A stretch of DNA of 63,889 bases, the filler included, from Bilabrum cf. latius (taxonomy: Eukaryota), in assembly GCA_965178125.1 (NCBI GenBank). It is 3 parts of 3 records of this genome, joined end to end, with 100 filler letters (N's around TTAATTAATTAA, not from the genome) between each part and the next. Parts side by side here need not be neighbours in the genome. Positions count along the whole stretch, not along the records: positions 24,429 to 48,578 come from CBCXTV010000042.1; 2 more parts are not named here. One strand, written 5' to 3'. Of the stretch, positions 20,851 to 48,678 are shown piece by piece. The translations under genes and the position numbers were made by a program. The notes beneath the pieces are model-generated. The model was not told the DNA's origin. It searched no databases and was given only the letters and a program-made list of their open reading frames with translations. Positions within the stretch are counted from its first letter, which is position 1. Each line of letters begins with the position of its first letter.

Positions 20851-21115
20851 GACGCCGGTTCAATCCCGCCTGTGAGTGACATGCCGGACATGAAGAACGC
20901 GATTCTCCGTGAGGGCGCGCGCGTTTACCCAACGAAGGTGGCAGGAGATGGCGGATGTCCTTGGACTTGGGCAGTCCTGACGGTGCGGGCTACAAATGCG
21001 CGCGCGATGCTTGTCCATTCCGGTCAGGTCGGTCGTGGGGTTGTGGTTCATAGCCGGGCATGCGGACAGGCTCGCTACAAGTGTGCATGCGGACAGGCTC
21101 GCGATAAAAGGGGGA

Positions 21116-21640
21116 CGGATACATGTAGAAAGGGAGGCGGAATATACGTAGAAAGGGGGGGCGGATATATGTAGAAAGGGGGGCGGATATATGTAGAAAG
21201 GGGGGCGGATAACTGTAGAAAGGGGGGCGGATAGTTGTAGAAAGGGGGGCGGATAACTGTAGAAAGGGGGGCGGATAACTGTAGAAAGGGGGGCGGATAA
21301 CTGTAGAAAGGGGGGCGGATAACTGTAGAAAGGGGGGCGGATAACTGTAGAAAGGGGGGCGGATAACTGTAGAAGGGGGGGGGGGGGGGGCGGATAACTG
21401 TAGAAAGGGGGGGCGGATAACTGTAGAAAGGGGGGCGGATAACTGTAGAAAGGGGGGCGGATAACTGTAGAAAGGGGGGCGGATAACTGTAGAGAGGTGG
21501 GCGGATACATGTAGAAATTGGTTGGGGGGCCGTGTGGAAATCCGTTTTGCGGCCGCGGGGCTAACTGTAGAAACCCGTTTTGGCGGCCGGGGGATAACTG
21601 TAGAAACCCGTTTTGGGGACCGGGGGATAACTGTAGAAAC
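21116..21640 (+). repeat. ~21-bp minisatellite GGATAACTGTAGAAAGGGGGGC
   Basis: About 20 tandem copies that degenerate into longer units at 21520-21640. Confidence 0.95.
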
Positions 21641-21689
21641 TCATTTTTGGGCCTTTTTTCAGCCCAAAAGAGCTTGTATAGAGGTTCCC

Positions 21690-22055
21690 CCCAAACCCCC
21701 AACCCGCAACCCAGGCACGCCCACGACACCCACACCCACACCCAGCGTAGCCGAAACCCACCCCAACCCCTATCCCTGCCCACCCCGCGGCCGCGCCCAC
21801 CTCCTCCTCTCCCCCTCGTTTGCCCACCCCTAGCACCCCAACCCACCACCACCACCACAACCACCACCTCCGAGCATCGACGCCCACCTCTACCATCCCA
21901 CCCGGCCCCGCTCGCCACTTGAACCCCCCCCCCCCCCCCCCCCCCCTCCCCACACCACCCCCACCACCCACCCACCGACCCGTTCACCCACCCAACCACC
22001 CACCCACTACACCCCCCGCCCAGCCGCCCACCCCCCCCCCCCCCCCCCCCCCCCA
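21690..22055 (+). repeat. C-rich low-complexity tract (poly-C, CCA repeats)
   Basis: Direct composition; G-quadruplex-prone on the minus strand. Confidence 0.85.
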
Positions 22056-24328: not shown

Positions 24329-24428
24329 NNNNNNNNNNNNNNNNNNNNNNNNNNNNNNNNNNNNNNNNNNNNTTAATTAATTAANNNNNNNNNNNNNNNN
24401 NNNNNNNNNNNNNNNNNNNNNNNNNNNN
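24329..24428. other. Artificial contig spacer
   Basis: N44 + TTAATTAATTAA (stops in six frames) + N44. Confidence 0.99.
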
Positions 24429-24515
24429 CCCTAACCCTAACCCTAACCCTAACCCTAACCCTAACCCTAACCCTAACCCTAACCCTAACCCTAACCCTAA
24501 CCCTAACCCTAACCT

Positions 24516-24558
24516 AAATATTTTTTCCCCGACCCTGTCCCTGACTTTATATTAGATA
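24516..24558 (+). mobile_element. Minimal telomeric insert: conserved terminus only (43 bp)
   Basis: aaatattttttccccgaccctgtccctgactttatattagata between two CCCTAA tracts. Confidence 0.75.
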
Positions 24559-24834
24559 CCCTAACCCTAACCCTAACCCTAACCCTAACCCTAACCCTAA
24601 CCCTAACCCTAACCCTAACCCTAACCCTAACCCTAACCCTAACCCTAACCCTAACCCTAACCCTAACCCTAACCCTAACCCTAACCCTAACCCTAACCCT
24701 AACCCTAACCCTAACCCTAACCCTAACCCTAACCCTAACCCTAACCCTAACCCTAACCCTAACCCTAACCCTAACCCTAACCCTAACCCTAACCCTAACC
24801 CTAACCCTAACCCTAACCCTAACCCCTAACCCTA

Positions 24835-26589
24835 TTCTCCAAACTTCGCACACATGACACATGATGATGACTCAAAGTGCGAATGAACGGCTGAAATCAA
24901 GAAATCTCATTTACAGCTAATGAACGCCCCTAAGGAAAACCTCTTACCTAACCCGAACCCATGTACGTATGCAAACCCAACCATGTAGGTGTGCAAACCC
25001 CATACTTGCAATGCTTGATGTAATAGAATCACGGGGAACATTTGCCCCCAGTTGTGGTCCCAGGCCGTCCCGATGCAGTTTGAACGGTCTTCATATCTCA
25101 TCTGGTTGCCGAGATCGCCGCGCGCATTTTTTCTGCATGACAATCTTCGTCCCACCATACTGTCGCCGCGCGGTATAAACGGAACCTGGGGAACATTTGC
25201 CCCCTGTTGTGGTCCCAGGCCGTCCCGATGCAGTTTGAACGGTCTTCATATCTCCTGTGGTTGCCGAGATCGCCGCGCGCATTTTTTCTGCCTGAAAATC
25301 TTCGTCCCCCCATACTGTCGCCGCGCGGTCAAAACGGAATCTGGGGAACATTTGCCCCACATTGTACCCCCAGGCCGTCCCGATGCAGTATGAACGGTCT
25401 TCATATCTCATCTGGTTGCCGAGATCGTCGCGCGCATTTTTTCTGCATGACAATCTTCGTCCAGCCATATTGTCGCCGCGCGGAATAAACGGAACCTGGG
25501 GAACATTTGCCCCCAGTTGTGGTCCCAGGCCGTCCCGATGCAGTTTGAACGGTCTTCATATCTCATCTGGTTGCCGAGATCGCCGCGCGCATTTTTTCTG
25601 CATGACAATCTTCGTCCAGCCATATTGTCGCCGCGCGGTATAAACGGAACCTGGGGAACATTTGCCCCCAGTTGTGGTCCCAGGCCGTCCCGATGCAGTT
25701 TGAACGGTCTTCATATCTCCTGTGGTTGCCGAGATCGCCGCGCGCATTTTTTCTGCCTGAAAATCTTCGTCCCCCCATACTGTCGCCGCGCGGTCAAAAC
25801 GGAATCTGGGGAACATTTGCCCCACATTGTACCCCCAGGCCGTCCCGATGCAGTATGAACGGTCTTCATATCTCATCTGGTTGCCGAGATCGCCGCGCGC
25901 ATTTTTTCTGCATGACAATCTTCGTCCAGCCATATTGTCGCCGCGCGGTATAAACGGAACCTGGGGAACATTTGCCCCCAGTTGTGGTCCCAGGCCGTCC
26001 CGATGCAGTTTGAACGGTCTTCATATCTCATCTGGTTGCCGAGATCGCCGCGCGCATTTTTTCTGCATGACAATCTTCGTCCAGCCATATTGTCGCCGCG
26101 CGGTATAAACGGAACCTGGGGAACATTTGCCCCCAGTTGTGGTCCCAGGCCGTCCCGATGCAGTTTGAACGGTCTTCATATCTCATCTGGTTGCCGAGAT
26201 CGTCGCGCGCATTTTTTCTGCATGACAATCTTCGTCCAGCCATATTGTCGCCGCGCGGTATAAACGGAACCTGGGGAACATTTGCCTAACATTGTACCCC
26301 CAGGCCGTCCCGATGCAGTTTGAACAGTCTTCATATCTCATCTGGTTGCCGAGATCGTTGCGCGCATTTTTTCTGCATGACAATCTTCGTCCAGCCATAT
26401 TGTCGCCGCGCGGTCAAAACGGAACCTGGGGAACATTTGCCCCACATTGTACCCCCAGGCCGTCCCGATGCAGTTTGAACGGTCCTCATATCTCATCTGG
26501 TTGCCGAGATCGTCGCGCGCATTTTTTCGACAAAAAGTGAAGATGAAAATTTTTTTTCCCCGACCCTGTCCCTGACTTTATATTAGATA
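24835..26589 (+). mobile_element. Telomeric cassette A, copy 1 (198-bp leader, ~9.6 x 155-bp satellite A, conserved terminus)
   Basis: Leader 24835-25032, satellite 25033-26527, terminus 26528-26589. The structure is seen directly; mobility is inferred. Confidence 0.7.
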
Positions 26590-26841
26590 CCCTAACCCTA
26601 ACCCTAACCCTAACCCTAACCCTAACCCTAACCCTAACCCTAACCCTAACCCTAACCCTAACCCTAACCCTAACCCTAACCCTAACCCTAACCCTAACCC
26701 TAACCCTAACCCTAACCCTAACCCTAACCCTAACCCTAACCCTAACCCTAACCCTAACCCTAACCCTAACCCTAACCCTAACCCTAACCCTAACCCTAAC
26801 CCTAACCCTAACCCTAACCCTAACCCTAACCTTAACCCTAA

Positions 26842-27615
26842 TACCTTAGATCAAAGCAATCCACACAGCAAATACAACTGTCATGTACACCATCCCCATT
26901 CTACAATTGACAGATAAACCATGCATATTGAATAGACATGCAAATCTTCATACACCCATATCAGCGCCGCGCGGCCAGAACGGAACCTGGGGAATATTTG
27001 GCCCATGTTGTGCCCCCAGGCCGTCCCGATGCAGTTTGAACGGTCTTCATATCACCTGTAGTTGCCGAGATCGTAGCACGTCGTTTTTCGGTGTGAAATT
27101 CTTCATACACCCATATCGGCGCCGCGCGGCCAGAACGGAACCTGGGGAACATTTGGCCCATGTTGTGCCCCCAGGCCGTCCCGATGCAGTTTGAACGGTC
27201 TTCATATCACCTGTAGTTGCCGAGATCGTAGCACGTCGTTTTTCGGTGTGAAATTCTTCATACACCCATATCGGCGCCGCGCGGCCAGAACGGAACCTGG
27301 GGAACATTTGGCCCATGTTGTGCCCCCAGGCCGTCCCGATGCAGTTTGAACGGTCTTCATATCACCTGTAGTTGCCGAGATCGTAGCACGTCGTTTTTCG
27401 GTGTGAAATTCTTCATACACCCATATCGGCGCCGCGCGGCCAGAACGGAACCTGGGGAACATTTGGCCCATGTTGTGCCCCCAGGCCGTCCCGATGCAGT
27501 TTGAACGGTCTTCATATCACCTGTAGTTGCCGAGATCGTAGCACGTCGTTTTTCGACAAATATTGAAGATGAAAATATTTTTTCCCCGACCCTGTCCCTG
27601 ACTTTATATTAGATA
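26842..27615 (+). mobile_element. Telomeric cassette B, copy 1 (100-bp leader, ~4 x 155-bp satellite B, terminus)
   Basis: Leader 26842-26941 matches 36688-36787; terminus 27554-27615. Confidence 0.7.
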
Positions 27616-27998
27616 CCCTAACCCTAACCCTAACCCTAACCCTAACCCTAACCCTAACCCTAACCCTAACCCTAACCCTAACCCTAACCCTAACCCTAAC
27701 CCTAACCCTAACCCTAACCCTAACCCTAACCCTAACCCTAACCCTAACCCTAACCCTAACCCTAACCCTAACCCTAACCCTAACCCTAACCCTAACCCTA
27801 ACCCTAACCCTAACCCTAACCCTAACCCTAACCCTAACCCTAACCCTAACCCTAACCCTAACCCTAACCCTAACCCTAACCCTAACCCTAACCCTAACCC
27901 TAACCCTAACCCTAACCCTAACCCTAACCCTAACCCTAACCCTAACCCTAACCCTAACCCTAACCCTAACCCTAACCCTAACCCTAACCCTAACCCTA

Positions 27999-29753
27999 TT
28001 CTCCAAACTTCGCACACATGACACATGATGATGACTCAAAGTGCGAATGAACGGCTGAAATCAAGAAATCTCATTTACAGCTAATGAACGCCCCTAAGGA
28101 AAACCTCTTACCTAACCCGAACCCATGTACGTATGCAAACCCAACCATGTAGGTGTGCAAACCCCATACTTGCAATGCTTGATGTAATAGAATCACGGGG
28201 AACATTTGCCCCCAGTTGTGGTCCCAGGCCGTCCCGATGCAGTTTGAACGGTCTTCATATCTCATCTGGTTGCCGAGATCGCCGCGCGCATTTTTTCTGC
28301 ATGACAATCTTCGTCCCACCATACTGTCGCCGCGCGGTATAAACGGAACCTGGGGAACATTTGCCCCCTGTTGTGGTCCCAGGCCGTCCCGATGCAGTTT
28401 GAACGGTCTTCATATCTCCTGTGGTTGCCGAGATCGCCGCGCGCATTTTTTCTGCCTGAAAATCTTCGTCCCCCCATACTGTCGCCGCGCGGTCAAAACG
28501 GAATCTGGGGAACATTTGCCCCACATTGTACCCCCAGGCCGTCCCGATGCAGTATGAACGGTCTTCATATCTCATCTGGTTGCCGAGATCGTCGCGCGCA
28601 TTTTTTCTGCATGACAATCTTCGTCCAGCCATATTGTCGCCGCGCGGAATAAACGGAACCTGGGGAACATTTGCCCCCAGTTGTGGTCCCAGGCCGTCCC
28701 GATGCAGTTTGAACGGTCTTCATATCTCATCTGGTTGCCGAGATCGCCGCGCGCATTTTTTCTGCATGACAATCTTCGTCCAGCCATATTGTCGCCGCGC
28801 GGTATAAACGGAACCTGGGGAACATTTGCCCCCAGTTGTGGTCCCAGGCCGTCCCGATGCAGTTTGAACGGTCTTCATATCTCCTGTGGTTGCCGAGATC
28901 GCCGCGCGCATTTTTTCTGCCTGAAAATCTTCGTCCCCCCATACTGTCGCCGCGCGGTCAAAACGGAATCTGGGGAACATTTGCCCCACATTGTACCCCC
29001 AGGCCGTCCCGATGCAGTATGAACGGTCTTCATATCTCATCTGGTTGCCGAGATCGTCGCGCGCATTTTTTCTGCATGACAATCTTCGTCCAGCCATATT
29101 GTCGCCGCGCGGTATAAACGGAACCTGGGGAACATTTGCCCCCAGTTGTGGTCCCAGGCCGTCCCGATGCAGTTTGAACGGTCTTCATATCTCATCTGGT
29201 TGCCGAGATCGCCGCGCGCATTTTTTCTGCATGACAATCTTCGTCCAGCCATATTGTCGCCGCGCGGTATAAACGGAACCTGGGGAACATTTGCCCCCAG
29301 TTGTGGTCCCAGGCCGTCCCGATGCAGTTTGAACGGTCTTCATATCTCATCTGGTTGCCGAGATCGTCGCGCGCATTTTTTCTGCATGACAATCTTCGTC
29401 CAGCCATATTGTCGCCGCGCGGTATAAACGGAACCTGGGGAACATTTGCCTAACATTGTACCCCCAGGCCGTCCCGATGCAGTTTGAACAGTCTTCATAT
29501 CTCATCTGGTTGCCGAGATCGTTGCGCGCATTTTTTCTGCATGACAATCTTCGTCCAGCCATATTGTCGCCGCGCGGTCAAAACGGAACCTGGGGAACAT
29601 TTGCCCCACATTGTACCCCCAGGCCGTCCCGATGCAGTTTGAACGGTCCTCATATCTCATCTGGTTGCCGAGATCGTCGCGCGCATTTTTTCGACAAAAA
29701 GTGAAGATGAAAATTTTTTTTCCCCGACCCTGTCCCTGACTTTATATTAGATA
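27999..29753 (+). mobile_element. Telomeric cassette A, copy 2
   Basis: Copy of 24835-26589 at offset 3164, with a C/T difference at 25893/29057. Confidence 0.7.
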
Positions 29754-30005
29754 CCCTAACCCTAACCCTAACCCTAACCCTAACCCTAACCCTAACCCTA
29801 ACCCTAACCCTAACCCTAACCCTAACCCTAACCCTAACCCTAACCCTAACCCTAACCCTAACCCTAACCCTAACCCTAACCCTAACCCTAACCCTAACCC
29901 TAACCCTAACCCTAACCCTAACCCTAACCCTAACCCTAACCCTAACCCTAACCCTAACCCTAACCCTAACCCTAACCCTAACCCTAACCCTAACCTTAAC
30001 CCTAA

Positions 30006-30779
30006 TACCTTAGATCAAAGCAATCCACACAGCAAATACAACTGTCATGTACACCATCCCCATTCTACAATTGACAGATAAACCATGCATATTGAATAGA
30101 CATGCAAATCTTCATACACCCATATCAGCGCCGCGCGGCCAGAACGGAACCTGGGGAATATTTGGCCCATGTTGTGCCCCCAGGCCGTCCCGATGCAGTT
30201 TGAACGGTCTTCATATCACCTGTAGTTGCCGAGATCGTAGCACGTCGTTTTTCGGTGTGAAATTCTTCATACACCCATATCGGCGCCGCGCGGCCAGAAC
30301 GGAACCTGGGGAACATTTGGCCCATGTTGTGCCCCCAGGCCGTCCCGATGCAGTTTGAACGGTCTTCATATCACCTGTAGTTGCCGAGATCGTAGCACGT
30401 CGTTTTTCGGTGTGAAATTCTTCATACACCCATATCGGCGCCGCGCGGCCAGAACGGAACCTGGGGAACATTTGGCCCATGTTGTGCCCCCAGGCCGTCC
30501 CGATGCAGTTTGAACGGTCTTCATATCACCTGTAGTTGCCGAGATCGTAGCACGTCGTTTTTCGGTGTGAAATTCTTCATACACCCATATCGGCGCCGCG
30601 CGGCCAGAACGGAACCTGGGGAACATTTGGCCCATGTTGTGCCCCCAGGCCGTCCCGATGCAGTTTGAACGGTCTTCATATCACCTGTAGTTGCCGAGAT
30701 CGTAGCACGTCGTTTTTCGACAAATATTGAAGATGAAAATATTTTTTCCCCGACCCTGTCCCTGACTTTATATTAGATA
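30006..30779 (+). mobile_element. Telomeric cassette B, copy 2
   Basis: Copy of 26842-27615 at offset 3164. Confidence 0.7.
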
Positions 30780-30988
30780 CCCTAACCCTAACCCTAACCC
30801 TAACCCTAACCCTAACCCTAACCCTAACCCTAACCCTAACCCTAACCCTAACCCTAACCCTAACCCTAACCCTAACCCTAACCCTAACCCTAACCCTAAC
30901 CCTAACCCTAACCCTAACCCTAACCCTAACCCTAACCCTAACCCTAACCCTAACCCTAACCCTAACCCTAACCCTTAACCCCCCCCCC

Positions 30989-31983
30989 TTGCAGCATGTA
31001 AATCTTCATCGATCCATATCGGCGCCGCGCGACAAAAACGGAACCTGGGGAACATTTGCCCCATGTTGTGCCCCTAGGCGGTCCTAATGCCGTTTCAACG
31101 GTCTTCATATCTCCTGTGGTTGCCGAGATCCTATGTTGTATTTTTGCAGCATGTAAATCTTCATCGATCCATATCGGCGCCGCGCGACAAAAACGGAACC
31201 TGGGGAACATTTGCCCCATGTTGTGCCCCCAGGCGGTCCTAATGCCGTTTCAACGGTCTTCATATCTCCTGTGGTTGCCGAGATCCTATGTTGTATTTTT
31301 GCAGCATGTAAATCTTCATCGATCCATATCGGCACCGCGCGACAAAAACGGAACCTGGGGAACATTTGCCCCATGTTGTGCCCCTAGGCGGTCCTAATGC
31401 CGTTTCAACGGTCTTCATATCTCCTGTGGTTGCCGAAATCCTATGTTGTATTTTTGCAGCATGTAAATCTTCATCGATCCATATCGGCACCGCGCGACAA
31501 AAACGGAACCTGGGGAACATTTGCCCCATGTTGTGCCCCTAGGCGGTCCTAATGCCGTTTCAACGGTCTTCATATCTCCTGTGGTTGCCGAGATCCTATG
31601 TTGTATTTTTGCAGCATGTAAATCTTCATCGATCCATATCGGCGCCGCGCGACAAAAACGGAACCTGGGGAACATTTGCCCCATGTTGTGCCCCTAGGCG
31701 GTCCTAATGCCGTTTCAACGGTCTTCATATCTCCTGTGGTTGCCGAGATCCTATGTTGTATTTTTGCAGCATGTAAATCTTCATCGATCCATATCGGCGC
31801 CGCGCGACAAAAACGGAACCTGGGGAGCATTTGCCCCATGTTGTGCCCCTAGGCGGTCCTAATGCCGTTTCAACGGTCTTCATATCTCCTGTGGTTGCCG
31901 AGATCCTATGTTGTATTTTTTCGACAAAAAGTGAAGATGAAAATATTTTTTCCCCGACCCTGTCCCTGACTTTATATTAGATA
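30989..31983 (+). mobile_element. Telomeric cassette C, copy 1 (6 x 155-bp satellite C, terminus)
   Basis: Preceded by CCCTTAA + C10; terminus 31922-31983. Confidence 0.7.
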
Positions 31984-32294
31984 CCCTAACCCTAACCCTA
32001 ACCCTAACCCTAACCCTAACCCTAACCCTAACCCTAACCCTAACCCTAACCCTAACCCTAACCCTAACCCTAACCCTAACCCTAACCCTAACCCTAACCC
32101 TAACCCTAACCCTAACCCTAACCCTAACCCTAACCCTAACCCTAACCCTAACCCTAACCCTAACCCTAACCCTAACCCTAACCCTAACCCTAACCCTAAC
32201 CCTAACCCTAACCCTAACCCTAACCCTAACCCTAACCCTAACCCTAACCCTAACCCTAACCCTAACCCTAACCCTAACCCTTAACCCCCCCCCC

Positions 32295-33289
32295 TTGCAG
32301 CATGTAAATCTTCATCGATCCATATCGGCGCCGCGCGACAAAAACGGAACCTGGGGAACATTTGCCCCATGTTGTGCCCCTAGGCGGTCCTAATGCCGTT
32401 TCAACGGTCTTCATATCTCCTGTGGTTGCCGAGATCCTATGTTGTATTTTTGCAGCATGTAAATCTTCATCGATCCATATCGGCGCCGCGCGACAAAAAC
32501 GGAACCTGGGGAACATTTGCCCCATGTTGTGCCCCCAGGCGGTCCTAATGCCGTTTCAACGGTCTTCATATCTCCTGTGGTTGCCGAGATCCTATGTTGT
32601 ATTTTTGCAGCATGTAAATCTTCATCGATCCATATCGGCACCGCGCGACAAAAACGGAACCTGGGGAACATTTGCCCCATGTTGTGCCCCTAGGCGGTCC
32701 TAATGCCGTTTCAACGGTCTTCATATCTCCTGTGGTTGCCGAAATCCTATGTTGTATTTTTGCAGCATGTAAATCTTCATCGATCCATATCGGCACCGCG
32801 CGACAAAAACGGAACCTGGGGAACATTTGCCCCATGTTGTGCCCCTAGGCGGTCCTAATGCCGTTTCAACGGTCTTCATATCTCCTGTGGTTGCCGAGAT
32901 CCTATGTTGTATTTTTGCAGCATGTAAATCTTCATCGATCCATATCGGCGCCGCGCGACAAAAACGGAACCTGGGGAACATTTGCCCCATGTTGTGCCCC
33001 TAGGCGGTCCTAATGCCGTTTCAACGGTCTTCATATCTCCTGTGGTTGCCGAGATCCTATGTTGTATTTTTGCAGCATGTAAATCTTCATCGATCCATAT
33101 CGGCGCCGCGCGACAAAAACGGAACCTGGGGAGCATTTGCCCCATGTTGTGCCCCTAGGCGGTCCTAATGCCGTTTCAACGGTCTTCATATCTCCTGTGG
33201 TTGCCGAGATCCTATGTTGTATTTTTTCGACAAAAAGTGAAGATGAAAATATTTTTTCCCCGACCCTGTCCCTGACTTTATATTAGATA
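32295..33289 (+). mobile_element. Telomeric cassette C, copy 2
   Basis: Offset 1306 from copy 1, with the same diagnostic variants. Confidence 0.7.
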
Positions 33290-33600
33290 CCCTAACCCTA
33301 ACCCTAACCCTAACCCTAACCCTAACCCTAACCCTAACCCTAACCCTAACCCTAACCCTAACCCTAACCCTAACCCTAACCCTAACCCTAACCCTAACCC
33401 TAACCCTAACCCTAACCCTAACCCTAACCCTAACCCTAACCCTAACCCTAACCCTAACCCTAACCCTAACCCTAACCCTAACCCTAACCCTAACCCTAAC
33501 CCTAACCCTAACCCTAACCCTAACCCTAACCCTAACCCTAACCCTAACCCTAACCCTAACCCTAACCCTAACCCTAACCCTAACCCTTAACCCCCCCCCC

Positions 33601-34595
33601 TTGCAGCATGTAAATCTTCATCGATCCATATCGGCGCCGCGCGACAAAAACGGAACCTGGGGAACATTTGCCCCATGTTGTGCCCCTAGGCGGTCCTAAT
33701 GCCGTTTCAACGGTCTTCATATCTCCTGTGGTTGCCGAGATCCTATGTTGTATTTTTGCAGCATGTAAATCTTCATCGATCCATATCGGCGCCGCGCGAC
33801 AAAAACGGAACCTGGGGAACATTTGCCCCATGTTGTGCCCCCAGGCGGTCCTAATGCCGTTTCAACGGTCTTCATATCTCCTGTGGTTGCCGAGATCCTA
33901 TGTTGTATTTTTGCAGCATGTAAATCTTCATCGATCCATATCGGCACCGCGCGACAAAAACGGAACCTGGGGAACATTTGCCCCATGTTGTGCCCCTAGG
34001 CGGTCCTAATGCCGTTTCAACGGTCTTCATATCTCCTGTGGTTGCCGAAATCCTATGTTGTATTTTTGCAGCATGTAAATCTTCATCGATCCATATCGGC
34101 ACCGCGCGACAAAAACGGAACCTGGGGAACATTTGCCCCATGTTGTGCCCCTAGGCGGTCCTAATGCCGTTTCAACGGTCTTCATATCTCCTGTGGTTGC
34201 CGAGATCCTATGTTGTATTTTTGCAGCATGTAAATCTTCATCGATCCATATCGGCGCCGCGCGACAAAAACGGAACCTGGGGAACATTTGCCCCATGTTG
34301 TGCCCCTAGGCGGTCCTAATGCCGTTTCAACGGTCTTCATATCTCCTGTGGTTGCCGAGATCCTATGTTGTATTTTTGCAGCATGTAAATCTTCATCGAT
34401 CCATATCGGCGCCGCGCGACAAAAACGGAACCTGGGGAGCATTTGCCCCATGTTGTGCCCCTAGGCGGTCCTAATGCCGTTTCAACGGTCTTCATATCTC
34501 CTGTGGTTGCCGAGATCCTATGTTGTATTTTTTCGACAAAAAGTGAAGATGAAAATATTTTTTCCCCGACCCTGTCCCTGACTTTATATTAGATA
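33601..34595 (+). mobile_element. Telomeric cassette C, copy 3
   Basis: Offset 1306 from copy 2. Confidence 0.7.
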
Positions 34596-34698
34596 CCCTA
34601 ACCCTAACCCTAACCCTAACCCTAACCCTAACCCTAACCCTAACCCTAACCCTAACCCTAACCCTAACCCTAACCCTAACCCTAACCCTAACCCTACC

Positions 34699-36014
34699 CA
34701 TTTTTTCTGCATGACAATCTTCGTCCAGCCATATTGTCGCCGCGCGGTCAAAACGGAACCTGGGGAACATTTGCCCCACATTGTACCCCCAGGCCGTCCC
34801 GATGCAGTTTGAACGGTCTTCATATCTCATCTGGTTGCCGAGATCGTCGCGCGCATTTTTTCTGCATGACAATCTTCGTCCAGCCATATTGTCGCCGCGC
34901 GGTCAAAACGGAACCTGGGGAACATTTGCCCCACATTGTACCCCCAGGCCGTCCCGATGCAGTTTGAACGGTCTTCATATCTCATCTGGTTGCCGAGATC
35001 GTCGCGCGCATTTTTTCTGCATGACAATCTTCGTCCAGCCATATTGTCGCCGCGCGGTCAAAACGGAACCTGGGGAACATTTGCCCCACATTGTACCCCC
35101 AGGCCGTCCCGATGCAGTTTGAACGGTCTTCATATCTCATCTGGTTGCCGAGATCGTCGCGCGCATTTTTTCTGCATGACAATCTTCGTCCAGCCATATT
35201 GTCGCCGCGCGGTCAAAACGGAACCTGGGGAACATTTGCCCCACATTGTACCCCCAGGCCGTCCCGATGCAGTTTGAACGGTCTTCATATCTCATCTGGT
35301 TGCCGAGATCGTCGCGCGCATTTTTTCTGCATGACAATCTTCGTCCAGCCATATTGTCGCCGCGCGGTCAAAACGGAACCTGGGGAACATTTGCCCCACA
35401 TTGTACCCCCAGGCCGTCCCGATGCAGTTTGAACGGTCTTCATATCTCATCTGGTTGCCGAGATCGTCGCGCGCATTTTTTCTGCATGACAATCTTCGTC
35501 CAGCCATATTGTCGCCGCGCGGTCAAAACGGAACCTGGGGAACATTTGCCCCCTGTTGTGGTCCCAGGCCGTCCCGATGCAGTTTGAACGGTCTTCATAT
35601 CTCATCTGGTTGCCGAGATCGTCGCGCGCATTTTTTCTGCATGACAATCTTTGTCCAGCCATATTGTCGCCGCGCGGTCAAAACGGAACCTGGGGAACAT
35701 TTGCCCCACATTGTACCCCCAGGCCGTCCCGATGCAGTTTGAACGGTCTTCATATCTCATCTGGTTGCCGAGATCGTCGCGCGCATTTTTTCTGCATGAC
35801 AATCTTCGTCCAGCCATATTGTCGCCGCGCGGGCGCGGTATAAACGGAACCTGGGGAACATTTGCCCAACATTGTACCCCCAGGCCGTCCCGATGCAGTT
35901 TGAACGGTCCTCATATCTCATCTGGTTGCCGAGATCGTCGCGCGCATTTTTTCGACAAAAAGTGAAGATGAAAATTTTTTTTCCCCGACCCTGTCCCTGA
36001 CTTTATATTAGATA
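34699..36014 (+). mobile_element. Telomeric cassette A' (~8 x 155-bp satellite A variant, terminus)
   Basis: Starts mid-unit directly after telomeric repeats; terminus 35953-36014. Confidence 0.7.
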
Positions 36015-36391
36015 CCCTAACCCTAACCCTAACCCTAACCCTAACCCTAACCCTAACCCTAACCCTAACCCTAACCCTAACCCTAACCCTAACCCTAACC
36101 CTAACCCTAACCCTAACCCTAACCCTAACCCTAACCCTAACCCTAACCCTAACCCTAACCCTAACCCTAACCCTAACCCTAACCCTAACCCTAACCCTAA
36201 CCCTAACCCTAACCCTAACCCTAACCCTAACCCTAACCCTAACCCTAACCCTAACCCTAACCCTAACCCTAACCCTAACCCTAACCCTAACCCTAACCCT
36301 AACCCTAACCCTAACCCTAACCCTAACCCTAACCCTAACCCTAACCCTAACCCTAACCCTAACCCTAACCCTAACCCTAACCCTAACCTAA

Positions 36392-36538
36392 ACCGAGGCA
36401 ACAATTGAAGAGAGGGACCGCGAGTTGGAAATGTTCGCAAACCTGATGACGGCCCTCGAGAAGACGGCGAAAGGAGATCTCAATGCGGCAGACGTCGACG
36501 CTGTGGAAGCGCTCCTAGCAGCTTTCGGTGACGAGTGA
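36392..36538 (+). pseudogene. 5'-truncated ORF tail (48 aa, acidic, probably helical)
   Basis: TEATIEERDRELEMFANLMTALEKTAKGDLNAADVDAVEALLAAFGDE-TGA, open from the telomere junction. Confidence 0.55.
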
Positions 36539-37926
36539 GAGGCAGGCAGGGGGACGGCAATTGAGGTCAGTGGCAGCTGGGCCAGCTTGTGAGAGGAGTT
36601 TGCCAAAGTGTCTGCCATTGACCCATTCGGACGCAGCATTAGGAGCCGGGAGGCATTCTGTTGAGTCTTGACGTGTCAACCAGTTAATACCTTAGATCAA
36701 AGCAATCCACACAGCAAATACAACTGTCATGTACACCATACCCATTCTACAATTGACAGATAAACCATGCATATTGAATAAACATGCAAATCTTCATACA
36801 CCCATATCGGCGCCGCGCGGCCAGAACGGAACCTGGGGAACATTTGGCCCATGTTGTGCTCCCAGGCCGTCCCGATGCAGTTTGAACGGTCTTCATATCA
36901 CCTGTAGTTGCCGAGATCGTAGCACGTCGTTTTTCGGTGTGAAATTCTTCATACACCCATATCGGCGCCGCGCGGCCAGAACGGAACCTGGGGAACATTT
37001 GGCCCATGTTGTGCCCCCAGGCCGTCCCGATGCAGTTTGAACGGTCTTCATATCACCTGTAGTTGCCGAGATCGTAGCACGTCGTTTTTCGGTGTGAAAT
37101 TCTTCATACACCCATATCGGCGCCGCGCGGCCAGAACGGAACCTGGGGAACATTTGGCCCATGTTGTGCCCCCAGGCCGTCCCGATGCAGTTTGAACGGT
37201 CTTCATATCACCTGTAGTTGCCGAGATCGTAGCACGTCGTTTTTCGGTGTGAAATTCTTCATACACCCATATCGGCGCCGCGCGGCCAGAACGGAACCTG
37301 GGGAACATTTGGCCCATGTTGTGCCCCCAGGCCGTCCCGATGCAGTTTGAACGGTCTTCATATCACCTGTAGTTGCCGAGATCGTAGCACGTCGTTTTTC
37401 GGTGTGAAATTCTTCATACACCCATATCGGCGCCGCGCGGCCAGAACGGAACCTGGGGAACATTTGGCCCATGTTGTGCCCCCAGGCCGTCCCGATGCAG
37501 TTTGAACGGTCTTCATATCACCTGTAGTTGCCGAGATCGTAGCACGTCGTTTTTCGGTGTGAAATTCTTCATACACCCATATCGGCGCCGCGCGGCCAGA
37601 ACGGAACCTGGGGAACATTTGGCCCATGTTGTGCCCCCAGGCCGTCCCGATGCAGTTTGAACGGTCTTCATATCACCTGTAGTTGCCGAGATCGTAGCAC
37701 GTCGTTTTTCGGTGTGAAATTCTTCATACACCCATATCGGCGCCACGCGGCCAGAACGGAACCTGGGGAACATTTGGCCCATGTTGTGCCCCCAGGCCGT
37801 CCCGATGCAGTTTGAACGGTCTTCATATCACCTGTAGTTACCGAGATCGTAGCACGTCGTTTTTCGACAAATATTGAAGATGAAAATATTTTTTCCCCGA
37901 CCCTGTCCCTGACTTTATATTAGATA
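36392..37926 (+). mobile_element. Telomeric cassette B-long (ORF tail, unique sequence, ~7 x 155-bp satellite B, terminus)
   Basis: Extends 296 bp further tip-ward than B copies 1 and 2; terminus 37865-37926. Confidence 0.72.
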
Positions 37927-38531
37927 CCCTAACCCTAACCCTAACCCTAACCCTAACCCTAACCCTAACCCTAACCCTAACCCTAACCCTAACCCTAACC
38001 CTAACCCTAACCCTAACCCTAACCCTAACCCTAACCCTAACCCTAACCCTAACCCTAACCCTAACCCTAACCCTAACCCTAACCCTAACCCTAACCCTAA
38101 CCCTAACCCTAACCCTAACCCTAACCCTAACCCTAACCCTAACCCTAACCCTAACCCTAACCCTAACCCTAACCCTAACCCTAACCCTAACCCTAACCCT
38201 AACCCTAACCCTAACCCTAACCCTAACCCTAACCCTAACCCTAACCCTAACCCTAACCCTAACCCTAACCCTAACCCTAACCCTAACCCTAACCCTAACC
38301 CTAACCCTAACCCTAACCCTAACCCTAACCCTAACCCTAACCCTAACCCTAACCCTAACCCTAACCCTAACCCTAACCCTAACCCTAACCCTAACCCTAA
38401 CCCTAACCCTAACCCTAACCCTAACCCTAACCCTAACCCTAACCCTAACCCTAACCCTAACCCTAACCCTAACCCTAACCCTAACCCTAACCCTAACCCT
38501 AACCCTAACCCTAACCCTAACCCTAACCCTA

Positions 38532-39146
38532 CCCATGATATGGCCCTAGGCCGTCCCAAAACAGTTTGAATCATCTTCATACCTATTCTAGTTGCTGAGA
38601 TCGCAGAGGGCACATTTTCGGCATGTAAATCTTCATCAGCCAGTATCGTCGCCGCGCGGTCAAAACGGAACCTGGGGAACACTTGCCCCATGATATGGCC
38701 CTAGGCCGTCCCAAAACAGTTTGAATCATCTTCATACCTATTCTAGTTGCTGAGATCGCAGAGGGCACATTTTCGGCATGTAAATCTTCATCAGCCAGTA
38801 TCGTCGCCGCACGGTCAAAACGGAACCTGGGGAACATTTGCCCCATGATATGGCCCTAGGCCATCCCAAAACAGTTTGAATCATCTTCATACCTATTCTA
38901 GTTGCTGAGATCGCAGAGGGCACATTTTCGGCATGTAAATCTTCATCAGCCAGTATCGTCGCCGCGCGGTCAAAACGGAACCTGGGGAACATTTGCCCCA
39001 TGATATGGCCCTAGGCCATCCCAAAACAGTTTGAATCATCTTCATACCTATTCTAGTTGCTGAGATCGCAGAGGGCACATTTTCGACAAAAAAATGAAGA
39101 TGAAAATATTTTTTCCCCGACCCTGTCCCTGACTTTATATTAGATA
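38532..39146 (+). mobile_element. Telomeric cassette D (~3.6 x 155-bp satellite D, terminus)
   Basis: Most diverged satellite variant; starts mid-unit; terminus 39084-39146. Confidence 0.7.
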
Positions 39147-39350
39147 CCCTAACCCTAACCCTAACCCTAACCCTAACCCTAACCCTAACCCTAACCCTAA
39201 CCCTAACCCTAACCCTAACCCTAACCCTAACCCTAACCCTAACCCTAACCCTAACCCTAACCCTAACCCTAACCCTAACCCTAACCCTAACCCTAACCCT
39301 AACCCTAACCCTAACCCTAAACCTAACCCCTAACCCTTAACCTAACCTAA

Positions 39351-39425
39351 ATATATATAATGTGCGGCGGTTTATTTTTTGGTCAAAAAAAGGGCGTGCC
39401 CCGATCCTAACATGACCCCCAGATA
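39351..39425 (+). mobile_element. Short telomeric insert with a diverged (type 2) terminus
   Basis: ccccgatcctaacatgacccccagata|ccctaa resembles ccccgaccctgtccctgactttatattagata|ccctaa. Confidence 0.5.
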
Positions 39426-39478
39426 CCCTAACCCTAACCCTAACCCTAACCCTAACCCTAACCCTAACCCTAACCTAA

Positions 39479-42220
39479 GAGTGGGCATGGCACTGTGCGG
39501 GGGACCTGTTGGGCGAGCGGCGGATGGTGGGGAGAGTGGGCATGGCACTGTGCGGGGGACCTGTTGGGCGAGCGGCGGATGGTGGGGAGAGTGGGCATGG
39601 CACTGTGCGGGGGACCTGTTGGGCGAGCGGCGGATGGTAGGGAGAGTGGGCATGGCACTGTGCGGGGGACCTGTTGGGCGAGCGGCGGATGGTAGGGAGA
39701 GTGGGCATGGCACTGTGCGGGGGACCTGTTGGGCGAGCGACGGAGGGTGTGGAGAGTGGGCATGGCACTGTGCGGGGGACCTGTTGGGCGAGCGGCGGAT
39801 GGTGGGGAGAGTGGGCATGGCACTGTGCGGGGGACCTGTTGGGCGAGCGGCGGATGGTGTGGAGAGTGGGCATGGCACTGTGCGGGGGACCTGTTGGGCG
39901 AGCGGCGGATGGTGGGGAGAGTGGGCATGGCACTGTGCGGGGGACCTGTTGGGCGAGCGGCGGATGGTAGGGAGAGTGGGCATGGCACTGTGCGGGGGAC
40001 CTGTTGGGCGAGCGGCGGATGGTGTGGAGAGTGGGCATGGTACTGTGCGGGGGACCTGTTGGGCGAGCGGCGGATGGTAGGGAGAGTGGGCATGGCACTG
40101 TGCGGGGGACCTGTTGGGCGAGCGGCGGATGGTGGGGAGAGTGGGCATGGCACTGTGCGGGGGACCTGTTGGGCGAGCGGCGGATGGTAGGGAGAGTGGG
40201 CATGGCACTGTGCGGGGGACCTGTTGGGCGAGCGGCGGAGGGTGTGGAGAGTGGGCATGGCACTGTGCGGGGGACCTGTTGGGCGAGCGGCGGATGGTAG
40301 GGAGAGTGGGCATGGCACTGTGCGGGGGACCTGTTGGGCGAGCGGCGGATGGTGGGGAGAGTGGGCATGGCACTGTGCGGGGGACCTGTTGGGCGAGCGG
40401 CGGAGGGTGTGGAGAGTGGGCATGGCACTGTGCGGGGGACCTGTTGGGCGAGCGGCGGATGGTAGGGAGAGTGGGCATGGCACTGTGCGGGGGACCTGTT
40501 GGGCGAGCGGCGGATGGTGGGGAGAGTGGGCATGGCACTGTGCGGGGGACCTGTTGGGCGAGCGGCGGATGGTGGGGAGAGTGGGCATGGCACTGTGCGG
40601 GGGACCTGTTGGGCGAGCGGCGGATGGTAGGGAGAGTGGGCATGGCACTGTGCGGGGGACCTGTTGGGCGAGCGGCGGATGGTGGGGAGAGTGGGCATGG
40701 CACTGTGCGGGGGACCTGTTGGGCGAGCGGCGGATGGTAGGGAGAGTGGGCATGGCACTGTGCGGGGGACCTGTTGGGCGAGCGACGGAGGGTGTGGAGA
40801 GTGGGCATGGCACTGTGCGGGGGACCTGTTGGGCGAGCGGCGGATGGTGTGGAGAGTGGGCATGGCACTGTGCGGGGGACCTGTTGGGCGAGCGGCGGAT
40901 GGTGGGGAGAGTGGGCATGGCACTGTGCGGGGGACCTGTTGGGCGAGCGGCGGATGGTGGGGAGAGTGGGCATGGCACTGTGCGGGGGACCTGTTGGGCG
41001 AGCGGCGGATGGTAGGGAGAGTGGGCATGGCACTGTGCGGGGGACCTGTTGGGCGAGCGGCGGATGGTGGGGAGAGTGGGCATGGCACTGTGCGGGGGAC
41101 CTGTTGGGCGAGCGGCGGATGGTAGGGAGAGTGGGCATGGCACTGTGCGGGGGACCTGTTGGGCGAGCGACGGAGGGTGTGGAGAGTGGGCATGGCACTG
41201 TGCGGGGGACCTGTTGGGCGAGCGGCGGATGGTGGGGAGAGTGGGCATGGCACTGTGCGGGGGACCTGTTGGGCGAGCGGCGGATGGTGGGGAGAGTGGG
41301 CATGGCACTGTGCGGGGGACCTGTTGGGCGAGCGGCGGATGGTGGGGAGAGTGGGCATGGCACTGTGCGGGGGACCTGTTGGGCGAGCGGCGGATGGTAG
41401 GGAGAGTGGGCATGGCACTGTGCGGGGGACCTGTTGGGCGAGCGGCGGATGGTGTGGAGAGTGGGCATGGCACTGTGCGGGGGACCTGTTGGGCGAGCGG
41501 CGGATGGTAGGGAGAGTGGGCATGGCACTGTGCGGGGGACCTGTTGGGCGAGCGGCGGATGGTGGGGAGAGTGGGCATGGCACTGTGCGGGGGACCTGTT
41601 GGGCGAGCGGCGGATGGTAGGGAGAGTGGGCATAGCACTGTGCGGGGGACCTGTTGGGCGAGCGGCGGAGGGTGTGGAGAGTGGGCATAGCACTGTGCGG
41701 GGGACCTGTTGGGCGAGCGGCGGATGGTAGGGAGAGTGGGCATGGCACTGTGCGGGGGACCTGTTGGGCGAGCGGCGGATGGTGGGGAGAGTGGGCATGG
41801 CACTGTGCGGGGGACCTGTTGGGCGAGCGGCGGAGGGTGTGGAGAGTGGGCATGGCACTGTGCGGGGGACCTGTTGGGCGAGCGGCGGATGGTGGGGAGA
41901 GTGGGCATGGCACTGTGCGGGGGACCTGTTGGGCGAGCGGCGGATGGTAGGGAGAGTGGGCATGGCACTGTGCGGGGGACCTGTTGGGCGAGCGGCGGAT
42001 GGTGGGGAGAGTGGGCATGGCACTGTGCGGGGGACCTGTTGGGCGAGCGGCGGATGGTAGGGAGAGTGGGCATGGCACTGTGCGGGGGACCTGTTGGGCG
42101 AGCGGCGGATGGTGGGGAGAGTGGGCATGGCACTGTGCGGGGGACCTGTTGGGCGAGCGGCGGATGGTAGGGAGAGTGGGCATGGCACTGTGCGGGGGAC
42201 CTGTTGGGCGAGCTGCGGAT
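39479..42220 (+). repeat. Subtelomeric 55-bp G-rich satellite, ~50 copies
   Basis: Unit gagtgggcatggcactgtgcgggggacctgttgggcgagcggcggatggt[gg/ag/gt]gga. Confidence 0.98.
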
Positions 42221-42387
42221 CCGGATGAGTTGGGCAGCACTGGGAAGAAGCCTCACCTGGATGGTCCGAAGCCAAGGGGATCATGTCATTCAATCCGTAA
42301 CAGAAGTGGGACACATGGATCACTTCGGTTCATGGAGCTGTTCAAATTTTTTGCTTTGCTTCAGTCAAGGCAGCAGAATTTTCTGGC

Positions 42388-48578: not shown

Positions 48579-48678
48579 NNNNNNNNNNNNNNNNNNNNNN
48601 NNNNNNNNNNNNNNNNNNNNNNTTAATTAATTAANNNNNNNNNNNNNNNNNNNNNNNNNNNNNNNNNNNNNNNNNNNN
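48579..48678. other. Artificial contig spacer
   Basis: N44 + TTAATTAATTAA + N44. Confidence 0.99.

What the first reader, a model, noticed from the sequence alone, without database searches (positions are those of the whole stretch)
24429..39478. Chromosome end built from co-oriented satellite cassettes interleaved with telomeric repeats: candidate new telomere-targeted element or elongation system
Seen: 12 inserts between 13 (CCCTAA)n tracts, all in one orientation. Every insert ends on the centromere side in ...AGATA|CCCTAA, whereas the tip-side ends fall at variable positions. Established: fixed 3' ends joined to C-strand telomeric repeats, with 5'-truncated ends facing the tip and capped by telomerase, describe endonuclease-less Penelope-like Athena/Terminon elements; Magnaporthe MoTeR elements have a similar polarity. 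Inference: an RNA ending in (CCCUAA)n anneals to the G-overhang, is reverse transcribed for a variable distance and is then capped, so the end grows in alternating rounds. Unusually, the delivered cargo is mostly a nucleosome-sized satellite. No RT is encoded in this window. DNA-templated copying (Y'/TALT-like) is the main alternative.
Basis: partly seen in the sequence, partly recalled or inferred. Interest (0 to 1): 0.9.

Follow-up and report, generated by a model that had tools for sequence, protein, structure and literature searches.

The report
Telomere built from capped satellite cassettes
One chromosome end of a stramenopile protist carries twelve same-direction satellite blocks, each ending in the same short tail joined to telomere repeats, which suggests an extra way of lengthening chromosome ends beside telomerase.

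Summary
The window is three contigs joined by N linkers. The middle contig starts at 24429 with (CCCTAA)n and carries 13 telomeric tracts and 12 co-oriented inserts. All 12 inserts end in AGATA|CCCTAA. Eleven carry the same tail, with the last 32 nt identical in 11 of 11. Only 8 inserts are independent. Five are exact DNA-level duplicates, tract lengths included.

New evidence:
- The 62-nt tail differs by 1-4 nt between satellite families that differ by about 20% just upstream.
- Every irregular telomeric unit lies at the tip-side end of a cassette.
- Cassette 10 opens with a coding-like ORF tail on the predicted RNA strand.
- Contigs of public runs continue upstream of its truncation point, so longer copies exist.

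Evidence that was looked for and not found:
- No hammerhead ribozyme.
- No RT in the 28 ORFs scanned.
- No listed RNA run.

Best reading (0.45): 5'-truncated copies of longer elements are added to the G-overhang from an RNA template, capped by telomerase, then amplified by recombination. DNA-only copying (0.35) is not excluded. It works like MoTeR or Athena arrays, but membership in either is not shown.

The parts
24329..24428 (.). Artificial linker (N44-TTAATTAATTAA-N44) between contig 1 and the middle contig. It marks 24429 as a contig start.
24429..24512 (+). Telomeric tract T1, 14 perfect CCCTAA units, at the contig start (tip)
24513..24558 (+). Cassette 1: only the last 46 nt of the tail, including 5 nt of irregular telomeric unit
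24559..24822 (+). Tract T2, 44 units
24823..26589 (+). Cassette 2 (family A): 198-nt non-satellite head, 9.7 monomers, 62-nt tail
26590..26829 (+). Tract T3, 40 units
26830..27615 (+). Cassette 3 (family B): 106-nt head equal to the last part of the cassette 10 head, 3.9 monomers, tail
27616..27993 (+). Tract T4, 63 units. It is the junction tract between the two copies of the duplicated block.
27994..29753 (+). Cassette 4, a duplicate of cassette 2
29754..29993 (+). Tract T5, 40 units (same length as T3)
29994..30779 (+). Cassette 5, a duplicate of cassette 3
30780..30971 (+). Tract T6, 32 units
30972..31983 (+). Cassette 6 (family C): 6 monomers plus tail. The tip-side junction carries a run of 10 C.
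31984..32277 (+). Tract T7, 49 units
32278..33289 (+). Cassette 7, identical to cassette 6
33290..33583 (+). Tract T8, 49 units (same length as T7)
33584..34595 (+). Cassette 8, identical to cassette 6
34596..34691 (+). Tract T9, 16 units
34692..36014 (+). Cassette 9 (family A variant): 8 monomers plus tail, 96% identical to cassette 2
36015..36386 (+). Tract T10, 62 units
36387..37926 (+). Cassette 10 (family B), the longest reach upstream: about 400-nt head, 6.9 monomers, tail (37865-37926)
36392..36538 (+). Open frame of 48 codons plus stop at the tip-side end of cassette 10. It lies on the same strand as the predicted RNA and has coding-like GC periodicity.
   Evidence: The frame stays open in the 30 upstream letters of a run X5 contig.
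37927..38526 (+). Tract T11, 100 units
38527..39146 (+). Cassette 11 (family D, most divergent satellite): 3.6 monomers plus tail
39147..39320 (+). Tract T12, 29 units
39321..39425 (+). Cassette 12: about 30 nt of irregular telomeric units, then 76 nt of a divergent tail-like sequence that also ends in AGATA
39426..39473 (+). Tract T13, 8 units, the innermost tract. It joins the 55-bp array through CCTAAG.
39478..42220 (+). 55-bp repeat, 50 copies, G-rich on +. This is the native subtelomere on which the first telomere was seeded.

Best explanation
The array is a record of stepwise growth of one chromosome end.

The source elements are longer, multi-copy units. Each is built as head (with a possible ORF), then 3' untranslated stretch, then a 155-bp satellite array, then a conserved 62-nt tail, then (CCCTAA)n. 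At least four satellite families share the tail (A to D, about 20% apart). A fifth, older tail type is seen in cassette 12.

The proposed cycle is as follows:
1. A source copy is transcribed towards the centromere, through the tail and into the flanking telomeric tract. This is inferred.
2. The (CCCUAA)n end of that RNA pairs with the G-overhang of a telomere. This is inferred.
3. The overhang primes reverse transcription from the tail backwards. This is inferred.
4. Synthesis stops after 46 to about 1750 nt. The variable tip-side ends are shown.
5. Telomerase then starts on the non-telomeric 3' end, at first with irregular units. The position of the irregular units is shown; the enzyme is inferred.
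6. A new telomere of 8-100 units is built before the next round.

The reverse transcriptase is not encoded in the window. It would act in trans, either from a full-length master or as telomerase itself. After delivery, blocks were copied at the DNA level by unequal sister exchange, break-induced replication or rolling circle. This gave 5 of the 12 cassettes, and that step is shown.
For: 1. Geometry. All 12 of 12 inserts are co-oriented and end in AGATA|CCCTAA, and there are 8 different tip-side ends.
2. All 13 tracts are perfect from the tail junction onwards. Every irregular unit sits within the last 30 nt or less, next to the tip-side end of the more proximal cassette. Growth was therefore outward, and each cassette end was capped de novo.
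3. The 62-nt tail differs by 1-4 positions between families, against 59-80 differences in the ~310 nt upstream (Fisher p 0.005 to 5e-6). The last 38 nt are identical in all, and the boundary is sharp at the tail/satellite border. This looks like the shared 3' tail of retroelement families that use one enzyme, not a gene-conversion gradient.
4. Two of the 8 independent cassettes are tiny, at 46 and about 76 nt. That is what abortive reverse transcription would give.
5. Cassette 10 starts inside an open frame with gene-like GC1/2/3 of 0.69/0.38/0.65, against 0.64/0.42/0.80 for DLD. The frame lies on the strand the RNA model predicts and is followed by a flat, lower-GC stretch.
6. Longer copies exist. 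A run X5 contig identical to the window over 36395-36585 carries 94 more non-telomeric letters upstream. A run X1 contig carries 54 more letters upstream that did not align to the window. Run X1 also holds a telomere/satellite junction at a position not present in the window.
7. Cassette 3 is a shorter version of cassette 10. They share the head/satellite junction and differ at 2 positions in the last ~620 nt.
8. This architecture is the one described for telomere-attaching retroelements: Terminons in PMC6431247 and MoTeR arrays in PMC7367193.
Against: - No reverse transcriptase was found. The 28 window ORFs scanned gave only DLD, GH79 and DDE_1. That scan is not exhaustive, and the rest of the genome was not available.
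- No hammerhead ribozyme or any other Rfam family was found on either strand at E<=10.
- The tail has no RNA fold better than shuffles (z from -0.16 to +1.21).
- Five of the 12 cassettes are exact DNA-level duplicates, down to tract length. Recombination alone can therefore extend this array.
- The ORF tail has no homologue. Its coding status rests on 48 codons.
- Every feature listed in favour, except perhaps the sharp tail conservation and the tiny cassettes, is also produced by DNA copying plus erosion and healing.
- MoTeR arrays themselves are known to grow by BIR.
Confidence: 0.45

Rival explanations
1. DNA-only growth, of the Y'/TALT type. Many chromosome ends carry satellite arrays that end proximally in tail plus an interstitial telomeric tract. 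A shortened telomere invades such a tract on a sister chromatid, another chromosome end or an extrachromosomal circle, and copies outward by break-induced or rolling-circle replication. Tip-side ends vary because terminal cassettes are later eroded or broken and then healed by telomerase. No RNA or RT is involved.
For: - The block c2-T40-c3 equals c4-T40-c5 at 2785 of 2786 positions. c6+T49 equals c7+T49 at 1306 of 1306 positions, and c8 is identical too. This is exactly what sister-chromatid BIR or a 1306-bp circle would give.
- No RT, ribozyme or RNA structure was found.
- The satellite gives summed word depths about 1000 times those of the cassette 10 head in run X1. The tool warns that this is no copy number. 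It hints that the satellite is a bulk genome component and not just element cargo.
- mTALT units are flanked by telomeric repeats in uniform direction (PMC7889907).
- BIR extends MoTeR arrays, and truncation plus healing occurs there (PMC7367193).
Against: - It needs at least 8 separate de novo healing events inside cassettes, although a perfect telomeric seed lies at most 1.8 kb further in. Two of them would be only 46 and about 76 nt from that seed. Healing inside MoTeRs is called relatively rare.
- It gives no reason why the 62-nt tail stays nearly invariant, with a sharp border, across families about 20% apart.
- It leaves the sense orientation of the ORF tail to chance (1 in 2).
Confidence: 0.35
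2. Endonuclease-driven, site-specific retrotransposition into telomeric repeats (the TRAS/SART, MoTeR or FoTeR mode). An element-encoded nuclease nicks the repeat at a fixed phase inside an existing tract. The tracts between cassettes are then pieces of older telomere and not new caps.
For: - The phase of the junction is the same in 12 of 12 inserts (AGATA|CCCTAA).
- MoTeR and FoTeR arrays show the same asymmetry, with canonical repeats at the 3' side.
Against: - Irregular units are confined to the tip-side junction of every cassette (13 of 13 tracts). This fits fresh synthesis on a non-telomeric end better than insertion into a pre-existing perfect tract.
- No nuclease or RT ORF was seen.
- The constant phase also follows if the RNA simply carries repeats read from its source locus.
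Confidence: 0.08
3. Assembly artefact. The array, or the number and order of its cassettes, was produced by an assembler looping through telomeric and satellite repeats on a short 24-kb contig.
For: - The contig is short (24,150 bp).
- Exact multi-kb duplicates are the kind of thing graph traversal can inflate.
- No read-level check across the array was possible (one search used short contigs only).
Against: - Eight different junctions, each with its own irregular units, are hard to invent.
- The head/satellite junction (36685-36838) is bridged by a contig in run X1, and another telomere/satellite junction occurs there.
- The same family B monomer contig, with 1 differing letter, occurs in the runs X5, X6 and X8.
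Confidence: 0.04

Closest known systems
MoTeR1/MoTeR2 arrays in Magnaporthe oryzae telomeres (and FoTeRs in Fusarium oxysporum)
   Same: - Arrays are head to tail with the 5' ends nearest the chromosome tip.
- Elements are separated by telomeric tracts.
- A non-autonomous partner shares terminal sequence with the autonomous one.
- 5'-truncated copies are capped by new telomere.
- Arrays are further expanded by BIR.
- Junctions are asymmetric, with canonical repeats at the 3' side.

Sources: PMC7367193, passages; PMC12857005, section 19.
   Different: - No RT or restriction-like nuclease ORF is seen here.
- The body is mostly a 155-bp satellite.
- The tracts between cassettes are long (8-100 units, against half a unit to more than 20).
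- The variant-repeat 5' cap of intact MoTeRs could not be looked for, because no intact copy is in the window.
- The host is a stramenopile, not a fungus.
Athena/Terminon and Coprina endonuclease-deficient Penelope-like elements
   Same: - The 3' end is joined to reverse-complement telomeric repeats that can pair with the G-overhang.
- Most copies are 5'-truncated by telomeric repeats.
- Chains are head to tail at chromosome ends.

Sources: PMC6431247; PMC8557442.
   Different: - The hammerhead ribozyme that sits immediately before the telomeric stretch in those elements is absent.
- No PLE RT was found.
- The telomeric stretch here is a full-length tract and not a short one.
- The two primary papers (PMC1890498, PMC5850863) are not held, so details come from later papers by the same group.
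TALT templates for ALT (mouse mTALT; C. elegans TALT, recalled) and yeast Y' elements (recalled)
   Same: - A non-telomeric unit is flanked by telomeric repeats in uniform direction.
- It is copied to chromosome ends by recombination (PMC7889907).
- The exact duplicates in this array behave this way.
   Different: - Those units have both ends fixed and come from one locus. Here there are 8 different tip-side ends and at least 4 diverged families sharing only the tail.
- Telomerase is evidently active here, since it capped every cassette.
Drosophila HeT-A (recalled, with review PMC5537684 seen only as a search listing)
   Same: A telomere-specific element without its own RT. It has a long non-coding 3' region, is delivered 3' end first, and forms 5'-truncated head-to-tail arrays.
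   Different: Drosophila lacks telomerase and its elements end in oligo(A). Here cassettes alternate with telomerase-made tracts and end in a specific tail.

Membership tests
Athena/Terminon (EN-deficient Penelope-like elements) | Hammerhead ribozyme motif immediately upstream of the 3' reverse-complement telomeric repeats | tested here: not met
   cmscan of 24429-42400 on both strands against all Rfam families at E<=10 gave 0 matches. The gathering-threshold scan of the whole window also gave 0. The feature is as stated in PMC6431247 and PMC8557442.
Athena/Terminon (EN-deficient Penelope-like elements) | PLE-type reverse transcriptase ORF in full-length copies | tested here: inconclusive
   No RT domain was found in the 28 window ORFs scanned with Pfam. 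All copies here are 5'-truncated, longer copies exist outside the window, and the genome is not held.
Athena/Terminon (EN-deficient Penelope-like elements) | 3' end abuts C-strand telomeric repeats, and copies are 5'-truncated by telomeric repeats in head-to-tail chains | tested here: met
MoTeR/FoTeR telomeric non-LTR retrotransposons | RT with restriction-enzyme-like endonuclease ORF | tested here: inconclusive
   None was found in the 28 ORFs scanned. No full-length copy is available.
MoTeR/FoTeR telomeric non-LTR retrotransposons | Head-to-tail arrays with 5' ends towards the tip and telomeric tracts between elements | tested here: met
   The feature is as in PMC7367193.
MoTeR/FoTeR telomeric non-LTR retrotransposons | Variant telomere-like repeats at the 5' end of intact elements | not testable with these tools
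   No intact 5' end lies in the window. The upstream continuation was seen only as 30 printed letters.
TALT / Y'-type recombination templates | Unit with both ends fixed, flanked by telomeric repeats and amplified as a whole | tested here: not met
   There are 8 different tip-side ends among the 12 cassettes. The feature is met only for the duplicated blocks.
TALT / Y'-type recombination templates | Copying at the DNA level, so that spacer tracts are copied along with the unit | tested here: met
   T3 = T5 (40 units) and T7 = T8 (49 units) lie inside blocks identical at 2785 of 2786 and 1306 of 1306 positions. This applies to 5 of the 12 cassettes.
Retrozyme-like ribozyme satellites | Self-cleaving ribozyme in each monomer | tested here: not met
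   0 Rfam matches at E<=10

The most novel reading that the evidence does not exclude
A set of RT-less RNAs, made of a satellite array plus a conserved 62-nt tail and a (CCCUAA)n end, is copied onto G-overhangs. The enzyme would be telomerase itself, switching from its own template RNA to these RNAs and back, or a dedicated trans-acting telomeric RT. The telomeres of this stramenopile would then be natural composites in which telomerase tracts alternate with reverse-transcribed satellite. It would be a living intermediate between telomerase-only and retrotransposon-only (Drosophila-type) telomeres, and a route by which satellite DNA is spread by reverse transcription.
Probability: 0.25. Interest if true: 0.9.

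Novelty: new variant of a known kind. Interest (0 to 1): 0.62.

Why it matters
If the cassettes are delivered through RNA, this would be a telomere-attaching retroelement system in a stramenopile whose cargo is almost entirely a nucleosome-sized satellite and which carries no ribozyme and no RT of its own. That bears on three questions:
- How telomerase and telomeric retroelements are related.
- How satellites spread between chromosome ends.
- How cells extend ends when telomerase alone does not suffice.

If the cassettes are delivered through DNA only, the array is still a natural, telomerase-proficient example of TALT-like end building, with a conserved cis element next to each interstitial tract.

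Either way, the sharply conserved 62-nt tail is a concrete, testable candidate for a cis-acting telomere element.

Tried and rejected
- **Whole genome and earlier notes.** Neither is available. Other chromosome ends could not be surveyed.
- **Collection scans.** The 38-nt tail junction and a 21-nt satellite core gave 0 matches in metagenome contigs. The 32-nt tail gave 0 in genome contigs.
- **Rfam.** There were 0 matches at gathering thresholds for the whole window and 0 at E<=10 for 24429-42400. A ribozyme-bearing satellite or Athena-type 3' end is rejected.
- **RNA folding of the last 134 nt.** This was done for three families and for the opposite strand. The z-scores were 0.31, 0.93, -0.16 and 1.21, so there is no structure signal. 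A possible pairing between the last monomer and the tail shows no covariation.
- **ORF tail of cassette 10.** Searches in longer proteins and in proteins of similar length gave no hit. The exhaustive HMMER search gave 2 hits, both repetitive low-complexity proteins with patchy Pfam matches, and these were rejected. The Atlas best score of 0.82 is in the chance range.
- **Sequencing runs.** No RNA holder is listed.
- **Window's own junction at 36387-36394.** No listed contig covered it. Telomeric contigs may be filtered, so this means nothing.
- **Telomerase RNA template-boundary read-through as the origin of the cassettes.** Considered and rejected. Four diverged satellite families, different heads and an ORF tail do not fit one telomerase RNA.
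- **Gene-conversion gradient as the cause of tail conservation.** Considered and thought unlikely, because the identity border is sharp and sits at the same place in all pairs.
- **Papers.** PMC1890498 and PMC5850863, the primary Athena and Terminon papers, are not held. Supplementary files were not consulted.
- **Literature searches for the same architecture.** Searches listed no paper describing satellite cassettes with a fixed tail alternating with telomeric tracts in a stramenopile. These were keyword listings only, so this is weak evidence that it is not in print.

Full report
**What the window is.** Two blocks of N44-TTAATTAATTAA-N44 at 24329-24428 and 48579-48678 show that the window is three contigs placed end to end. 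The finding begins at the first base of the middle contig (24429-48578, 24,150 bp). A contig that starts with (CCCTAA)n is what a left chromosome end looks like, so 'chromosome end' is reasonable. The 24 kb to its left belong to another contig. Behind the array lie a 55-bp repeat of 50 copies (39478-42220) and ordinary genes. These are a dihydrolipoamide dehydrogenase (42388-43902, minus strand) and a GH79 glycosidase (45371-46852, minus strand). The dehydrogenase's named relatives are all stramenopiles at 66-73% identity (diatoms, Chrysophaeum, Chrysoparadoxa, Tribonema, Pythium, Pinguiococcus). The closest unnamed proteins reach 76-79% over the full length, and one shorter protein reaches 90% over 73% of the query. 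The host is therefore a stramenopile without a close named relative in that collection.

**The observation.**
- There are 13 tracts of perfect CCCTAA (14, 44, 40, 63, 40, 32, 49, 49, 16, 62, 100, 29 and 8 units). No TTAGGG dimer occurs on the plus strand. One search found 520 matches to (CCCTAA)3 against none in shuffles.
- The 12 inserts measure 46 to 1767 bp, and all 12 end in AGATA followed directly by CCCTAA.
- Eleven inserts carry the same tail. Its last 32 nt occur 11 times, always on the plus strand, without a mismatch.
- The body is a 155-bp satellite. All 62 matches to its conserved core are on the plus strand and inside the array.

**Refinement 1: five cassettes are DNA copies.** The block cassette 2 - 40 units - cassette 3 recurs as cassette 4 - 40 units - cassette 5, with 2785 of 2786 positions identical. 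Cassette 6 with its 49-unit tract equals cassette 7 with its tract at 1306 of 1306 positions, and cassette 8 is identical again. Spacer tracts of the same length inside identical blocks mean copying at the DNA level, by sister-chromatid break-induced replication, unequal exchange or a 1306-bp circle. An assembler looping through the repeat could also produce them. Only 8 tip-side junctions are independent.

**Refinement 2: there are several families.**
- The satellite falls into four types, found in cassettes 2/4/9, 3/5/10, 6-8 and 11.
- The types differ by about 18-25% from each other. Monomers within one cassette of the second and third types are about 99% alike.
- Cassettes 2/4 and cassette 10 have non-satellite heads that are unrelated to each other.
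- Cassette 3 carries the last 106 nt of the cassette 10 head (98% identical). It has the same head/satellite junction and differs at 2 positions in the last ~620 nt, but it has three fewer monomers.
- Cassette 1 is just the last 46 nt of the tail.
- Cassette 12 is about 76 nt of a divergent sequence. It aligns to the tail with two deletions and also ends in AGATA.

**Refinement 3: the tail is a separate, conserved module.** Between families the 62-nt tail differs at 1-4 positions, whereas the 310 nt just upstream differ at 59-80 positions, gaps counted (Fisher p 0.005 to 5e-6). The last 38 nt are identical in every copy. The border of high identity lies at the tail/satellite boundary in all pairs. 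On the G-strand the tail holds three telomere-like hexamers. This is read directly from the sequence.

**Refinement 4: the tracts have a polarity.** Each of the 13 tracts is perfect from the tail junction onward. All irregular units (CCTAA, CCTTAA, CCCCTAA, CCCTTAA, CCTAAA, and a run of ten C) lie within the last 30 nt or less of the tract, next to the tip-side end of the more proximal cassette. For the innermost tract they lie next to the 55-bp repeat. On the G-strand these are the first units laid down on a non-telomeric 3' end. The array therefore grew outward, and each cassette end was capped de novo, most simply by telomerase.

**Longer copies exist.**
- The tip-side 400 nt of cassette 10 start inside an open frame of 48 codons ending at 36538, on the plus strand. 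This is the strand an RNA template would have.
- Its GC at codon positions 1/2/3 is 0.69/0.38/0.65, against 0.64/0.42/0.80 for the dehydrogenase. After the stop the pattern is flat and GC falls to 0.48. With 48 codons this is suggestive only.
- No homologue was found.
- I laid contigs of four public runs on 36381-36960.
- A 285-nt contig of run X5 is identical to the window over 36395-36585 and carries 94 more letters upstream. The last 30 are printed. They are not telomeric and, by my reading, keep the frame open.
- A 129-nt contig of run X1 carries 54 more letters upstream that did not align to the window. Its word depth of 920 is similar to that of the contigs covering the rest of the head (914-1085).
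- A run X1 contig bridges head and satellite (36685-36838).
- Run X1 also has a contig in which four CCCTAA units join the satellite at 36862, a junction not present in the window.
- Run X5 further holds diverged paralogues of the head that leave for other sequence after 36672.
- Summed word depth over the monomer is about 1000 times that over the head. The tool warns that this is no copy number, so I use it only as a hint that the satellite is abundant.
- Cassette 10 is therefore a 5'-truncated copy of a longer, multi-copy unit.

**What was not found.**
- There is no Rfam family at all on either strand at E<=10. In particular there is no hammerhead ribozyme.
- The tail has no RNA fold better than shuffles.
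- There is no RT domain in the 28 window ORFs scanned. The only families were the two genes above and a DDE_1 transposase on the third contig.
- No RNA run is listed as a holder.
- The tail and satellite core gave no match in the metagenome or prokaryote genome collections.
- The genome itself and earlier notes were not available.

**Mechanism.** Two models fit the geometry.

*RNA model.* A transcript running through the satellite and tail into the flanking tract ends in (CCCUAA)n and pairs with a G-overhang. It is reverse transcribed for a variable distance, and telomerase caps the cDNA end. This model predicts all of the following, as observed:
- a fixed centromere-side junction to perfect repeats;
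- variable and sometimes tiny copies (46 and about 76 nt);
- irregular first units at each cap;
- several diverged families sharing one sharply bounded 3' tail, as non-autonomous elements share the tail of the enzyme's own template;
- an ORF in sense orientation.

*DNA model.* A short telomere invades an interstitial tract elsewhere and copies outward. Variable ends arise later by erosion and healing. The exact duplicates prove that such copying happens here. The MoTeR literature shows both processes coexisting in one array (PMC7367193, passages). Against a DNA-only history:
- it needs at least 8 healing events inside cassettes, although a perfect telomeric seed lies just behind each one;
- it gives no reason for the tail's conservation.

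I put the RNA-primed model at 0.45, DNA-only at 0.35, nuclease-driven insertion into existing tracts at 0.08 and artefact at 0.04.

**Comparison with known systems.**
- The array works like MoTeR/FoTeR arrays and like Athena/Terminon chains.
- It is not shown to be a member of either. The hammerhead motif that defines the Terminon 3' end was tested and is absent, and no RT of any kind was seen.
- It differs from TALT and Y' templates (Y' and the worm TALT are recalled) in its variable tip-side ends and multiple families.
- What is unusual is the cargo, which is almost entirely a nucleosome-sized satellite. Also unusual are the long telomerase tracts between cassettes, the ribozyme-free conserved tail, and the host lineage.
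- Four keyword searches listed no description of such an array. That is weak evidence of absence from print.

**Verdict.** The feature is real, it is well beyond chance, and it is correctly described. The retroelement reading is plausible and somewhat strengthened, but it is unproven. Recombination demonstrably contributes. I class it as a new variant of a known kind, with interest 0.62.

Noticed in passing
window 24329-24428 and 48579-48678: The window is three separate contigs glued with N44-TTAATTAATTAA-N44 linkers. Anything that seems to span these points is not real linkage.
   Followed up: yes
window 39478-42220: A 55-bp repeat of 50 copies at 97% identity lies directly behind the innermost telomeric tract. 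It is strongly G-rich on the plus strand (GC skew +0.53), which is the strand opposite to the telomeric G-strand.
   Followed up: partly
window 30972-30990, 32278-32296 and 33584-33602: A run of ten C lies between the irregular telomeric units and the satellite at the tip-side junction of cassettes 6-8. The letters are either non-templated or come from telomerase stuttering.
   Followed up: no
window 154-647, 978-1107, 5113-5844, 8725-9219 and 13043-13615 (contig 1): Five arrays of an 11-bp unit (ACTGAACACAA and variants) occur in both orientations, with 12 to 67 copies each, scattered between ORF-like stretches.
   Followed up: no
window 21107-21517: A 22-bp repeat (about 18 copies) with a G-run in each unit, followed by a 33-bp repeat at 21533-21647 and C-rich low-complexity sequence at 21923-22054.
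   Followed up: no
window 48993-50594 (minus strand, contig 3): A 533-aa ORF with a DDE_1 (pogo/Tc5-type) transposase domain (E 2e-11). It is a DNA transposon unrelated to the telomeric cassettes.
   Followed up: partly
window 58908-59965 and 54539-55180 (contig 3): A 499-bp tandem duplication (99% identical) contains 72-bp sub-repeats. Two arrays of a 53/54-bp repeat lie upstream.
   Followed up: no
runs X5, X6 and X8 laid on window 36791-36945: The same 174-nt contig of the family B monomer (1 differing letter) occurs in runs labelled with three different coded organisms. Either the satellite is conserved across labels, or the same protist is present in those samples.
   Followed up: no
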